Assembly (NCBI RefSeq): GCF_009914755.1
Contig: NC_060935.1
Length of the DNA: 64,000 bases
Origin: the human T2T-CHM13v2.0 reference genome, Homo sapiens
Reading direction: 5' to 3' (one strand)
Below the pieces are notes generated by a model. That model did not search any database, was not told where the DNA came from, and saw only the letters and a program-made list of their open reading frames with translations. Numbering within the stretch: position 1 is the stretch's first letter; the number at the start of each line of letters is the position of its first letter. Position numbers and translations under genes: made by a program. Positions 27,393-30,850 of this stretch are shown in pieces.

Positions 27393-27653
27393 CTCTGAAT
27401 AACATCAAATAAGAGAATGGCTATAAAGTGCCCAGTGTGCTCTATACTAAGCACACAGTAGATGTGAGAGGAGGAGAGGTCTATAGATTCTGTCCTGAAA
27501 AGGGTTGGGCCTCACCTAACTGGCCAGAGCAACCTGAGTTAGGCTTATCCCAGGACAATACTAGTAGCTATCTTAGCATGGTAGTCAAGACTCTTTGTGA
27601 CATGGCTTCAACCTTCTTCTGCCACTACCTGCCATATATTCTATATTCTAGAC

Positions 27654-27993
27654 CAGGGGTCCCCAACCCCTGGGCCACGGACCTGTGTCAGTCCATGGCC
27701 CGTTAGGGACTGGGCTGCACAGCAGGAGATGAGTGGTGGGTGAGGGAGTATTACTGCCTGAACTCCACCTTTTGTCAGATCAGCAGTGGCATTAGATCCT
27801 CATAGGAGTGCGAACCCTATTATGAACTGCACATGTGAGGGATCTAGGTTACGTGCTTCTTATGAGAATCTCACTGATGCCTGATGATCTAGGTGGAACA
27901 GTTTCATGCTGAAACCATCTCCCTGCCCAGGTCCATGGAAAAATCATCTTCCATGAAACCAGTCCCTCATGCCAAAAAGGTTGGGGACTGCTG
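27654..27993 (+). mobile_element. MER1B (hAT-Charlie)
   Basis: caggggtccccaacc ... ggttggggactgctg TIRs; about 340 bp. Confidence 0.88.
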
Positions 27994-28787
27994 TTTCACA
28001 CACATCAAATTTCACATCTTTTCTTTTGCACCTGTCTTCATTCTGTATTGAGTGCCCTCCTCTCCCCACACCCATGAAATATTTGAGATAAGCTTCTACT
28101 AATCCTTTATGTTGCAATACATCATCTTCTCTGAGGCTGTCCCTGAAGCCCTAGGCAGTTATTTCCTTTCTTCTCTGTGCCGTATGTATTTTTCTCATCA
28201 GAATCTGTGCTTCACTCATGCTGTTTAGCTTTTGATCTCTTCCACTGGATTGGGAACTAACTTCCTCCAGGCTTGGCACTAAGTAGTCCCCTTATGAATG
28301 CTCAGTTGAATAGCTGGACGAATGGATGGATGGATAATTGATTCTCAACCCTGGTCACAACAGTTTAAAAATATTCCAAAATCAAATTTATTGAGTTATA
28401 ATTTACATAAAAGAAGATACACCTATTTTAAATGTACAGTTTGATGCATTTTGACAGATGTTATCATTTGTGTAACCACCACCACATTCAAGATATAGAA
28501 TATATCCATCACCTTATAATGTTGCATTTGTGATTTTTTCCCAGTCAGTCCCCAGCTCCCTTCCTGGCTCCAGCTAACCATTGATCTGCTTTCTATCACT
28601 ATAGATTTGTCTTTTCTAGGATTTCATATAAATAGACTCACAGTGTATACTCCTTTCATACTTAGTATTTTATGGGACAGATAGATATTAAACACACAAA
28701 TGTGGTAAATATTAAGGTCAGCATGACAACAAATGAAAGCAGTGCTTGGCATTCTAGAGTCATGGCTTTGCTTGTCTCTTTTCACAG

Positions 28788-28899
28788 TATACAATTGGAC
28801 CGTGGATGAGGTGGTACAGTGGCTGATCACATATGTGGAGCTGCCTCAGTATGAGGAGACCTTCCGGAAGCTGCAGCTCAGTGGCCATGCCATGCCAAG
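28788..28899 (+). CDS. STIM1: STIM1 exon 4 (about V129-R166; luminal SAM domain, N-glycosylation sequon NWT)
   Basis: ttcacag|TATACAATTGG...ATGCCAAG|gtcagg; 112 nt, phase 1 to 2; encodes (V)[36 protein letters not shown](R), recognised as STIM1. Confidence 0.98.
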
Positions 28900-30850
28900 G
28901 TCAGGAGGGGACTGGGTTTTTCTCTGTTGAGGGTACGGGGAATGGGCTGGAGTGGGCCTGCCTTCAGATTGCTCTGGCCAGTTAAGTGAGGTTCTGCCTT
29001 TTTCAGGGCAGCGTCTATAGATCTTGCCTCTTCTCACATCTGTTGTGCACTTGCTATAAAGTATGATGGGCGCTTTGTATCCACTCTCTTCTTTAATATT
29101 CCTGTCAGTCCTGGGAATAGTACTGATAGCTGCCATTTACTGAGTGCTTAGTACATGCCAGGCATTCTACTCAACACTGTATACAGTATCTCATTTAATT
29201 CTTACATCAGTCCTGTAAGGTGGGTATTATTGTATATAGATGATGAAACTGGTTAAGTAACTTATCCAAGGTCACAAACATGACTAGTTAGGGGCAAAAC
29301 TGAGATTTGAATCTTGGTGTACATCAAACCCTGTTGGTGTTTCTTTTTTCTTTTTTTCCTGTGCCCTGAGCAGCTGCCTCTTTTATCACCCGGGAGCCTC
29401 AGGGCTCTTTTAGCCTCCCCTGGGTTATCCATATACAGCTTATTTATAATAAAAATGGTACAGAGGAGAGGCTGATTGCCATTGGCCCCAGCCTCATCTC
29501 TGGGATGGCTCCAACAGCTGTTGTTTCATAACTCTTTGCCTACTTTACACGCTGAATATGCTAGGGCTTGGGCTGGGAGTGGGAAGGGGATGGAGTACTG
29601 CTTGGACTTCTTGTCATGTCAAACTAGTGCCATATGCCATTCAGTCATTAATCCATTTACTTATTCATCCAACAAATATTTACTGGGTACCTGCTCTGTG
29701 CCAAGCACTTGTGCTGGGTGCTAGGGATAAAGATGACAACAAGCTGTCCTTGCCCTCAAAGGGCTTACTATCTGGTAAGTGCTGATTATGTATAATCTGT
29801 CATCTTATTATGTAGGTGCATCTGGTTTTGAGCTTCAGCAAAGGGGAAAGGGGAAGGTGAAGCTGTTGGAATGCCCACACTTTGCAGTCTCCAGCCACAG
29901 AGCTACTGAGCACTGCTGTCCAGGCCTAGCTGAGCTGGCTGTTCCCTCCTCTGCTGCCTGCAGCCTCTTCTTCACAGCTTCTCTCTGCTCTGGAGAGAGT
30001 AATAATCTTAATGTTTGTACCTCCCTTTATAGAGTGCTTTCCTACATATTATTTCAGTTGATTCTCACAACTCTGGGAGGAAGAGTATCCCAACCTTTGG
30101 GTGAACAAACTGAATCTCAAATATTTTATAATTTATCCAAGCTGGTAAGTGGCAGAGCTGGGATTTGAACCCAGGTCTGTCTTGTTCTAAATGCCCTGCT
30201 TTTTTTCACTGCATCTTCCTCTTGTGCCATGTGGTTAAAGATAGGCTTCCTTTCAATATTCAGTTTAGTTCTATTTTACAAAACTTCACTAAGCACCTAC
30301 CATGTGCCATACTCTCTGGTGGGCCCAGAGGACAAAGAGATGTATTAGACCTGACCCCTGACTTGAGGAACTCCATGTTTAATGGAAAAGTAGATGACTG
30401 ACCACTAAGATCCAGGATTTAGGTTTCTTTCTTGCTACCCATAGAAATAGCAATATTGCCTTGTGGATCCCTGGACCATTTTCCTCATGGGAAGGATATC
30501 TTTGGCTTGGATTAAAACTGCAAAGCATAGGATAAGAAGTCAGTTCTCAGGTCACTGGTTCACTTAGCTTTTTTGTGGCTAGAATTACAGCCAAGACCAG
30601 GTCCAGCCAGGCTGGGCACAGGTGTAGGGGATGTCAAGCTGTGGCACCTTAGTGACAGCAGGAAGCATGGGGCCTTCAGTGCTTGGGGTGAAGTGAGGGT
30701 GGTTCTAGGCCCATCACTAGCTCACATGGTATAATGAGAATAATCTAGCAGATTTGAGTTCATTCTCTGGCTTTGCCACTTACTTGTGTGTGACTTTGGG
30801 CAAGTTACTCAACTCTAAGTCTCCATTTTCTTATCTAGAAAGTCGCACTA

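What the first reader, a model, noticed from the sequence alone, without database searches (positions are those of the whole stretch)
27401..29100. Ungapped 137-bp inverted repeat loops out STIM1 exon 4: candidate long-range RNA switch
Seen: 27401-27537 (intron 3) aligns to the reverse complement of 28964-29100 (intron 4) with no gaps and 105/137 identity. The ORF track shows it too (VYRFCPEKGWASPNWPEQPE on + versus IYRRCPEKGRTSLNWPEQSE on -). I do not recognise either arm as a known repeat. Of 32 mismatches, 25 are transitions and 17 of those give G-U pairs in the sense RNA (8 give A-C), so about 122/137 positions can pair. The downstream arm starts 64 nt after the exon 4 donor, and weaker pairing extends into the G-runs beside it. 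Inference: the duplex could loop out the 112-nt exon, causing frameshift skipping and NMD, back-splicing to a circRNA, or ADAR editing, and so tune STIM1 dosage. Caveat: the 17:8 skew is borderline (one-sided binomial about 0.05), and transcription-associated A>G mutation bias would push the same way.
Basis: partly seen in the sequence, partly recalled or inferred. Interest (0 to 1): 0.85.

Follow-up and report, generated by a model that had tools for sequence, protein, structure and literature searches.

The report
Old inverted duplication flanking STIM1 exon 4
Two 137-base stretches on either side of STIM1 exon 4 really are reverse complements, but they look like a roughly 100-million-year-old local inverted copy of an old SINE tail plus its neighbouring DNA, with no sign of having been kept as an RNA switch.

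Summary
Positions 27401-27537 and 28964-29100 are an ungapped inverted repeat: 105/137 identical, 25 transitions, 17 G-U and 8 A-C. A gapped extension reaches 27566/28934.

It is not a common repeat. BLAST and three pattern scans of the whole genome find only these two copies. A 29-mer from the neighbouring old SINE finds 47 places.

The outer ~85 nt of the arms derive from that SINE family, which I recognise as MIR. The inner 53-80 nt are unique DNA shared by both arms. One arm is therefore a local inverted copy of the other. K2P is 0.30, which I read as roughly early placental age.

The arms are predicted to pair (-177 kcal/mol; in-register probability 0.84). Skipping exon 4 does shift the frame into an early stop.

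Both hints of selection fail neutral controls. Inverted pairs in the same window give 57% G-U, so P(≥17/25) = 0.18. Of 206 comparable pairs, 100 have an ungapped block ≥137 nt.

Stronger inverted Alu pairs also flank the exon. Conservation, circRNA, editing and splicing effects could not be tested. Verdict: a real structure of a known kind, and probably a neutral relic.

The parts
27401..27537 (+). Arm 1 (intron 3), ungapped block of the inverted repeat
   Evidence: 105/137 identical to the reverse complement of 28964-29100
28964..29100 (+). Arm 2 (intron 4), ungapped block; starts 64 nt after the exon-4 donor
   Evidence: the only non-self BLAST hit of arm 1 in the genome, E = 2.1e-20
27538..27566 (+). 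Weaker gapped extension of arm 1, towards the exon
   Evidence: 27401-27566 vs 29100-28934, 73%, 1 gap; cofold energy goes from -176.8 to -200.7 kcal/mol
28934..28963 (+). Weaker gapped extension of arm 2 (G-rich stretch 35-64 nt after the donor)
27390..27484 (+). SINE-derived (MIR-like) part of arm 1, in the sense orientation of the SINE as I recall it
   Evidence: Summed local-alignment score against 29 real copies is 415; random 71-mers give 260 +/- 21, and 1 of 400 reaches 415; all 29 alignments lie on one diagonal. z = 8.2 against shuffles. Colinear with 29134-29215. Limits are approximate.
29017..29115 (+). Homologous SINE-derived part of arm 2, much more decayed
   Evidence: z = 3.8 against shuffles, but unremarkable against genomic controls (85 of 294; 152 of 400). 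12 of 29 best alignments fall on the same diagonal as arm 1.
27485..27566 (+). Non-SINE unique flank shared by both arms (arm 1 side)
   Evidence: 43/53 identical within the ungapped block. No similarity to MIR copies or their flanks. Genome-wide 28-mer and 26-mer scans find only the arms or self.
28934..29016 (+). Non-SINE unique flank shared by both arms (arm 2 side)
   Evidence: same calls as the arm 1 flank
28788..28899 (+). STIM1 exon 4 (112 nt), enclosed by the arms
   Evidence: RefSeq annotation; frameshift and early stop when skipped
29113..29330 (+). Second, fuller old-SINE copy (MIR by my recognition), directly abutting arm 2
   Evidence: 12 BLAST places and 47 places for its 29-mer at up to 3 mismatches, reversed control 0
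27189..27392 (.). Palindromic MITE-like element, directly abutting arm 1
   Evidence: Internal inverted repeats 27254-27269/27358-27373 and 27257-27269/27292-27304. Limits and class come from my reading.
24592..24896 (+). Intron-3 Alu-like copy, inverted relative to 30859-31162; a competing, stronger pairing across exon 4
   Evidence: 84% over 306 columns; cofold -486.5 kcal/mol
30849..31162 (+). Intron-4 Alu-like copy, partner of several inverted intron-3 copies (22002-22305, 24592-24896, 22597-22900, 27047-27171)
   Evidence: soft-masked 30846-31160

Best explanation
The two arms are the only two copies in the human reference of a segment of about 170-180 nt. The segment consists of the terminal ~85-95 nt of an old SINE copy (MIR-type by my recognition) plus at least 53-80 nt of the unique DNA beside it.

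The homology runs across the SINE edge into unique flank, and nothing else in the genome matches. So one arm is a local inverted copy of the other, made once, about 1.4-1.7 kb away on the other side of exon 4. The arms are not two insertions of a repeat.

The arm-to-arm distance is K2P 0.30, or 0.15 per arm. From recalled substitution rates, that puts the event roughly at the time of early placental mammals.

In the STIM1 pre-mRNA the arms are predicted to form a long imperfect duplex that encloses exon 4. Such duplexes belong to a known kind, intronic complementary sequences. They can favour exon skipping or back-splicing and can attract ADAR.

Shown here: the repeat, its uniqueness, its composite make-up, the predicted pairing, and the frameshift on skipping.

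Inferred: the duplication mechanism and its date. Also inferred: the duplex is a neutral by-product with at most a small, incidental effect on exon 4, and is not a selected switch.
For: Real and unique:
- Searches confirm the repeat.
- BLAST of each arm against the whole genome returns self plus partner only.
- Pattern scans at up to 3 mismatches with a 28-mer and two 26-mers return only the arms or self. The reversed-pattern controls give 0, 1 and 0 places.
- Positive control: a 29-mer of the adjacent SINE finds 47 places, with 0 for its reversed control.
- From these scans, I put the number of other full-length copies at the arms' own divergence at fewer than about 9-44.

Composite make-up:
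- The outer half of arm 1 resembles real MIR copies. z = 8.2 with 0 of 200 shuffles reaching it. 6 of 294 random window 71-mers reach it. Against 29 further copies, 1 of 400 controls reaches it and 29 of 29 alignments share one diagonal.
- By my comparison, the strand of the best alignment is as expected in 11 of 12 copies for arm 1 and 10 of 12 for arm 2.
- The inner halves score at or below controls, yet they are 43/53 identical between the arms.

No sign of selection:
- The G-U fraction among transition sites of 318 inverted pairs in the same window is 0.569 (6648:5030). P(≥17 of 25) = 0.18, and 34 of 289 pairs are at least as skewed.
- The window's + strand is 52.7% G+T.
- 100 of 206 inverted pairs of 72-82% identity have an ungapped block of 137 nt or more.

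Pairing:
-.
Against: - Arm 1 keeps much more similarity to MIR copies than arm 2 (416 vs 263). Only 16 of 500 random swaps of the 22 differing bases reach that difference. This could mean arm 1 is constrained.
- The arms are the inverted pair closest to exon 4, and they have no competing partner inside their own introns. In the competition model of exon circularization, that favours pairing across the exon.
- RefSeq lists exon-4-less isoforms NM_001382570.1 (without exons 4 and 5) and NM_001382571.1 (without exons 2 and 4).
- Both outer ends of the homology stop within about 10 nt of another mobile-element fossil. A simple duplication does not explain this.
- Conservation in other mammals, which could reveal selection, was not testable here.
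- The MIR signal in arm 2 alone is weak (85 of 294 controls; 152 of 400).
Confidence: 0.7

Rival explanations
1. Selected long-range RNA switch. The duplex is maintained by selection because looping out exon 4 sets the level of productive STIM1 mRNA, through frameshift skipping and NMD, through a circRNA, or through ADAR editing.
For: - A strong predicted duplex that persists in a 1.9-kb fold.
- It is the closest inverted pair to the exon and has no within-intron competitor.
- Skipping gives an early stop.
- Exon-4-less isoforms exist in RefSeq.
- Arm 1 looks slower-evolving than arm 2 (16 of 500).
- Passages of PMC8052449 report lower inclusion of exons looped out by conserved complementary regions.
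Against: - The G-U skew and the lack of gaps match neutral controls.
- 15 of 137 positions cannot pair, and the arms have diverged about as expected for an old neutral duplicate (K2P 0.30).
- Far stronger inverted Alu pairs span the same exon (-486 and -526 kcal/mol).
- A single 112-nt exon is, as far as I recall, short for efficient circularization.
- The RefSeq isoforms skip exon 4 only together with exon 5 or exon 2.
- No paper in the library names a STIM1-derived circRNA or an exon-4 skip.
- The same PMC8052449 passages say exon loop-outs by conserved pairs are depleted overall.
Confidence: 0.07
2. Two independent insertions of the same mobile element, in opposite orientation. The element would be a rare family, or a MIR-like variant carrying an extra tail.
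For: - Part of each arm is SINE-derived.
- Both arms end at about the same element position on the outer side.
- The genome BLAST tool is insensitive to old repeats: the neighbouring MIR-like copy, from an abundant family as I recall, gave only 12 places.
Against: - No third copy turned up in three BLAST and three exhaustive pattern scans. The same kind of scan finds 47 places for a true old-SINE 29-mer.
- The non-SINE inner part is at least as similar between the arms (43/53) as the SINE part (62/84).
- That inner part has no similarity to 29 MIR copies or to the 110 nt beside them.
- My own arithmetic, made in no call: two members of a family of fewer than ~10-40 copies landing 1.4 kb apart by chance has a probability of the order of 1e-4 to 1e-3.
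Confidence: 0.07
3. The repeat matters at the DNA level, not the RNA level. It could be a duplicated regulatory element, or a cruciform- or recombination-prone palindrome.
For: None specific. Long inverted repeats can in principle form secondary structures in DNA.
Against: - RefSeq lists no functional element nearer than 45982-46276 in this window.
- By general knowledge, 77% identity with a 1.4-kb spacer is poor for cruciform extrusion.
Confidence: 0.03

Closest known systems
Intronic complementary sequences (inverted repeats, mostly Alu) flanking circularized or skipped exons
   Same: Reverse-complementary stretches in the two introns around an exon, predicted to form a stable duplex that brings the splice sites together.
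   Different: The arms are not Alu and not a dispersed repeat; this is a two-copy local duplicate. No back-splice or skipping product tied to it is known. The framework itself is recalled, except for what I read in PMC7371899 and PMC8052449 (passages only).
MIR-dependent circRNA biogenesis (ciRS-7/CDR1as, circCDK8, circSPNS1; PMC7371899, abstract and passages read)
   Same: Old, pre-primate SINE-derived inverted sequences within 3 kb of an exon. That paper shows such pairs can be required for back-splicing even when inverted Alus are also present.
   Different: Only ~85-95 nt of each arm is MIR-derived. Those authors found that efficient ciRS-7 back-splicing needs about 200 nt of inverted MIR. 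Here much of the pairing comes from shared non-MIR flank, and arm 2 has lost most MIR similarity. STIM1 is not mentioned in that paper's main text (0 occurrences).
Pairs of conserved complementary regions (PCCRs) looping out exons (PMC8052449, passages read)
   Same: Long-range intronic complementarity enclosing an exon. Looped-out exons there have lower inclusion.
   Different: That catalogue excludes RepeatMasker-annotated sequence and requires conservation. Conservation could not be tested here, and part of the arms is repeat-derived. STIM1 has 0 occurrences in the main text.
Short local inverted duplications made during break repair or template switching, including filler DNA at transposon excision sites
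   Same: Two copies only, close together and inverted. The homology crosses a repeat/unique boundary. One end sits at the edge of a DNA-transposon-like fossil.
   Different: After K2P 0.30 of divergence, no junction microhomology or other mechanistic footprint could be recognised. This comparison rests on recall and no call tested it.

Membership tests
Intronic complementary sequence pair promoting exon loop-out or back-splicing | Reverse-complementary sequences in the upstream and downstream introns of the same exon | tested here: met
Intronic complementary sequence pair promoting exon loop-out or back-splicing | Thermodynamically stable pairing that survives competition within the local transcript | tested here: met
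   Cofold -176.8 kcal/mol. 134 arm-to-arm pairs in the MFE, and ddG -119 kcal/mol when arm 2 is held single-stranded. Mean in-register probability 0.84. These are in-silico results on a 1.9-kb fragment only. Alu pairs outside that fragment are stronger.
Intronic complementary sequence pair promoting exon loop-out or back-splicing | An observed product (back-splice junction or exon-skipped mRNA) that depends on the pair | not testable with these tools
   No reads are available. RefSeq has isoforms lacking exon 4, but only together with exon 5 or exon 2. Paper searches found no STIM1-derived circRNA.
MIR-dependent circRNA loci (PMC7371899) | Inverted MIR elements within about 3 kb on both sides of the exon | tested here: inconclusive
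   The MIR-like part of arm 1 is clear. Arm 2 is clear only through its homology to arm 1 and a shared diagonal in 12 of 29 alignments.
MIR-dependent circRNA loci (PMC7371899) | Long, near-consensus MIRs (about 200 nt needed for efficient ciRS-7 back-splicing) | tested here: not met
   The MIR-like part is only ~85-95 nt. The requirement is taken from passages.
Conserved complementary regions (PCCR) | Both sides conserved across species, with compensatory substitutions | not testable with these tools
Dispersed interspersed repeat (independent copies) | Further copies elsewhere in the genome | tested here: not met
   with positive controls. Sensitivity bound.
Dispersed interspersed repeat (independent copies) | Homology confined to the element and not shared in the flank | tested here: not met
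   The inner 53 nt are 43/53 identical between the arms but unlike MIR copies or their flanks.
Local (segmental) inverted duplication | Homology crosses a repeat/unique boundary, with exactly two neighbouring copies | tested here: met
Local (segmental) inverted duplication | Both copies appear at one node of the species tree; the source and the copy can be told apart | not testable with these tools
   No outgroup genomes are available. The unequal decay of the arms does not decide which is the source.

The most novel reading that the evidence does not exclude
A placental-age, non-Alu inverted duplication has been retained because its 137-170-bp duplex loops out the frameshifting exon 4 of STIM1. 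It would act as a structural brake on productive splicing, through exon skipping with NMD, a small circRNA, or an ADAR-editable dsRNA. The slower-evolving upstream arm would be the constrained partner.
Probability: 0.07. Interest if true: 0.55.

Novelty: new member of a known kind. Interest (0 to 1): 0.25.

Why it matters
STIM1 is the ER calcium sensor of store-operated calcium entry, and both loss-of-function and gain-of-function variants cause disease (general knowledge). A built-in RNA structure that diverts part of the pre-mRNA to a frameshifted, NMD-prone product would be a dosage control and a possible antisense-oligonucleotide target.

On the evidence here, the pair is one more intronic inverted repeat of a well-known kind. 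Its origin is unusual: a unique two-copy local duplicate that is part old SINE and part flank. No sequence signal shows it has been selected.

The practical value lies in three things: a clean test case of a non-Alu, competitor-free pair very close to an exon; the negative controls; and the origin worked out here.

Tried and rejected
- **Common repeat.** Rejected. Three BLAST searches and three pattern scans of the whole genome gave no third copy. BLAST alone would not have settled it, because the neighbouring old SINE gave only 12 places. I therefore added exhaustive pattern scans with a positive control.
- **RefSeq soft-masking as a repeat guide.** Uninformative. It misses even the neighbouring SINE.
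- **Known RNA family.** Rfam at E ≤ 1 gives nothing on the arms. It gives only a sub-threshold SRP hit on an Alu fragment and two chance-level hits.
- **G-U excess as a sign of selection.** Rejected against 318 inverted pairs of the window. That set is what remained of 359 unique pairs after I dropped self-overlapping palindromic hits and pairs below 70% identity. The arm pair itself is among the 318.
- **Ungapped block as a sign of selection.** Rejected: 100 of 206 comparable pairs have one. The arm pair is probably among the 206.
- **Larger inverted duplication interrupted by younger insertions.** No further colinear inverted homology in 22001-28787 against 28900-36000. The (-) MIR-like copy at 23062-23276 has the right polarity but scores only 12 bits against 29113-29330.
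- **Other copies of the arms within the window.** None by nhmmer or by blastn with word size 7.
- **Hyper-editing or deaminase origin of the differences.** The mismatch list mixes all four transition types.
- **Literature.** One search gave 46 papers. By the listing, and by the STIM1 passages of two papers (PMC12948098 and PMC7755800), the ones I looked at treat STIM1 as a target, not a host gene; I did not open the rest. One search ('circSTIM1' and variants) gave 0 papers. One search gave 20, none about STIM1 exon 4 by the listing. One search gave 0. One search gave 28.
- **Family names.** The names MIR, Alu, L2 and MITE/hAT are my own recognition from memory. No tool here names repeat families. 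The only tool support for 'Alu' is the SRP-like hit.
- **Consensus or ancestral sequences.** Searches compare natural copies pairwise.
- **Bias.** Its count (MIR copies agree with arm 1 at 168 and with arm 2 at 31 of 212 site-by-copy comparisons) is biased, because the alignments were anchored on arm 1. I rely on the permutation test instead.
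Full report
**1. The observation**

In 26500-30000 there is one inverted pair of 30 nt or more. Its arms are 27401-27537 and 28964-29100, 137 nt, 77% complementary and 1426 nt apart.

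Counting base by base gives 105/137 identical and 32 mismatches, of which 25 are transitions. In the sense RNA there are 17 G-U and 8 A-C positions, so 122/137 can pair. The longest perfect run is 16.

With gaps allowed, the match runs on to 27566 and 28934 (73% of 167 columns, one gap). In a BLAST of the whole genome the partner arm is the only non-self hit, at E = 2.1e-20, so chance is excluded.

Exon 4 (28788-28899, 112 nt) lies between the arms, and arm 2 starts 64 nt after the donor. Joining exon 3 (fetched) to exon 5 shifts the frame and gives a stop about 25 nt into exon 5.

**2. Is it a repeat family?**

BLAST of arm 1, of arm 2 with flanks, and of arm 1 with 100 nt of downstream flank returned self and partner only.

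That tool is weak on old repeats. The old SINE copy next to arm 2 (29121-29320) gave only 12 places. I therefore used exhaustive pattern scans at up to 3 mismatches:

| Probe | Result | Reversed-pattern control |
|---|---|---|
| 28-mer 27510-27537 | the two arms only | 0 |
| 26-mer 27480-27505 | self only | 1 |
| 26-mer 29050-29075 | self only | 0 |
| 29-mer of the neighbouring SINE (positive control) | 47 places | 0 |

From the binomial chance of staying within 3 mismatches, zero extra hits bounds the number of other full-length copies. The bound is about 9 at 23% pairwise divergence and about 44 at 30%. The arms are, for practical purposes, a two-copy sequence.

**3. What the arms are made of**

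A weak local match between arm 1 and the neighbouring SINE copy (20 nt at 90%) led me to compare the arms with natural copies of that family. From memory I recognise the family as MIR; no tool names it.

- Against 12 copies, the outer half of arm 1 (27401-27471) has a summed local score at z = 8.2 over shuffles. The outer half of arm 2 has z = 3.8. In both cases 0 of 200 shuffles reach the observed score.
- The inner halves have z = 0.4-0.6, and two control intron pieces have z = 0.0-0.2.
- By my comparison, the strand of the best alignment is the expected one in 11 of 12 copies for arm 1 and 10 of 12 for arm 2.
- Against random 71-mers of the window, arm 1 stays exceptional (6 of 294 controls reach it), but arm 2 does not (85 of 294).
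- With 29 further copies taken and oriented, arm 1 scores 415. Controls give 260 ± 21, and 1 of 400 reaches 415. All 29 alignments fall on one diagonal.
- Arm 2 scores 263, which is unremarkable (152 of 400). However, 12 of its 29 best alignments fall on that same diagonal.
- The inner halves score below the control mean, and they do not resemble the 110 nt beside those copies either.
- Arm 1 read in reverse (27464 to 27390) is colinear with 29134-29215 of the neighbouring copy.

So roughly 27390-27484 and 29017-29115 are SINE-derived. The remainder, 27485-27566 and 28934-29016, is not.

Within the ungapped block, the non-SINE part is 43/53 identical between the arms and the SINE part is 62/84. 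Homology that crosses the element's end into otherwise unique DNA, in exactly two neighbouring places, is the signature of a local duplication. It is not the signature of two insertions.

**4. Age**

K2P between the arms is 0.296, or about 0.15 per arm. From recalled human-lineage substitution rates, this corresponds roughly to the time of the early placental radiation. This date is an inference and was not tested.

**5. Do the 'selection' hints hold?**

I measured the expectation in the same transcript.

- 318 non-overlapping inverted pairs of at least 70% identity in the window, mostly Alu-like, give 6648 G-U against 5030 A-C transition sites. That is a G-U fraction of 0.569.
- Against that, P(≥17 of 25) = 0.18.
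- 34 of 289 pairs with at least 20 transition sites are as skewed as the arms or more.
- The + strand of the window is 52.7% G+T.

The absence of gaps is no more telling. Of 206 inverted pairs of 72-82% identity, 100 contain an ungapped block of at least 137 nt.

**6. Would it pair?**

- Cofold of the arms gives -176.8 kcal/mol, and -200.7 with the extensions.
- In the minimum-energy fold of 27301-29200, 134 arm-to-arm pairs form, 117 of them in register. Forbidding arm 2 from pairing costs 119 kcal/mol.
- The mean in-register pair probability is 0.84.

These are equilibrium predictions on a 1.9-kb fragment. Outside it, inverted Alu-like pairs span the same exon with far larger energies:

| Inverted pair | Cofold energy |
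|---|---|
| 24592-24896 with 30859-31162 | -486.5 kcal/mol |
| 22002-22305 with 30849-31151 | -526.4 kcal/mol |
| Alu fragment 27047-27171 (230 nt upstream of arm 1) with 30849-30972 | -164 kcal/mol |

In favour of the arms, they are the pair closest to the exon and have no alternative partner.

**7. Expression evidence**

RefSeq lists 22 STIM1 transcripts, and 20 contain exon 4. NM_001382570.1 lacks exons 4 and 5, an in-frame loss of 228 nt. NM_001382571.1 lacks exons 2 and 4. None skips exon 4 alone.

The paper searches found no STIM1-derived circRNA, no report of exon-4 skipping, and no long-range structure in STIM1 (and passages).

PMC7371899 (abstract and passages) shows that inverted MIRs can drive back-splicing. 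It found that about 200 nt of MIR was needed for ciRS-7. It does not mention STIM1 in its main text.

PMC8052449 (passages) reports lower inclusion of exons looped out by conserved complementary regions, and an overall depletion of such loop-outs. It excludes repeat-annotated sequence and does not mention STIM1 in its main text.

**8. What remains unexplained**

- **Outer ends.** Both outer ends of the homology stop within about 10 nt of another mobile-element fossil. These are a palindromic MITE-like element at 27189-27392 and the second SINE copy at 29113-29330. I found no continuation beyond either. A transposon-associated break-repair origin is possible but is only speculation.
- **Unequal decay.** Arm 1 keeps far more similarity to the SINE family than arm 2 (416 against 263). 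Only 16 of 500 random swaps of the 22 differing bases reach that difference. Either arm 2 changed faster or arm 1 is constrained.

**9. Verdict**

This is a real, unusually clean, non-Alu inverted repeat around a frameshifting exon. Its origin is now reasonably clear: a local inverted duplication of a SINE tail plus flank. It belongs to a well-known kind of structure that can influence splicing.

There is no sequence evidence that it was selected, and I could run no test of its effect. I put the neutral-relic reading at about 0.7 and the selected-switch reading at about 0.07.

Noticed in passing
window 28788-28899 and 32543-32658 (RefSeq transcripts): Two curated RefSeq mRNAs lack exon 4. NM_001382570.1 joins exon 3 to exon 6, an in-frame loss of 228 nt that removes part of the luminal domain. 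NM_001382571.1 skips exons 2 and 4 and uses a downstream start.
   Followed up: partly
window 27189-27392: A palindromic MITE-like element with internal inverted repeats (27254-27269/27358-27373 and 27257-27269/27292-27304) ends within about 10 nt of the outer end of arm 1. The class name comes only from my memory.
   Followed up: partly
window 27654-27993: A second short element with 15-nt terminal inverted repeats (27654-27668 and 27979-27993, 87% complementary) lies between arm 1 and exon 4. Its middle (27771-27909) is soft-masked in RefSeq.
   Followed up: no
window 28551-28569 and 28899-28916: In the predicted fold of 27301-29200, the exon-4 donor and the G-rich stretch after it pair with a pyrimidine-rich stretch about 220 nt upstream of the exon. 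P(unpaired) is about 0 for intron positions +1 to +6. The donor itself reads GCCAAG|gtcagg. This is a prediction only.
   Followed up: no
window 27401-27484 vs 29017-29100: Unequal decay of the two arms relative to natural copies of the SINE family. Summed scores are 416 and 263, and 16 of 500 permutations are as unequal.
   Followed up: partly
window 23062-23276 (-), 30044-30177 (+), 30769-30814 (-), 61236-61313 (+); also about 29648-29718: Further weak copies of the same old SINE family occur in introns 3 and 4 and elsewhere (nhmmer). They add weak inverted pairs across exon 4. A random control 71-mer starting at 29648 scored 449 against the 29 copies, so another such piece probably lies there.
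   Followed up: no
window 27053-27168 (-): An Alu-like fragment 230 nt upstream of arm 1 gives a sub-threshold Rfam match to metazoan SRP RNA (34 bits, threshold 70). It pairs in silico with the intron-4 Alu-like copy at 30849-30972 about as strongly as the arms pair with each other (-164 kcal/mol).
   Followed up: partly
whole window: The sense strand is 52.7% G+T. Inverted repeat pairs throughout the window show 57% G-U against 43% A-C at transition sites. This gives a usable local null for any 'wobble-preserving' argument in this gene.
   Followed up: yes
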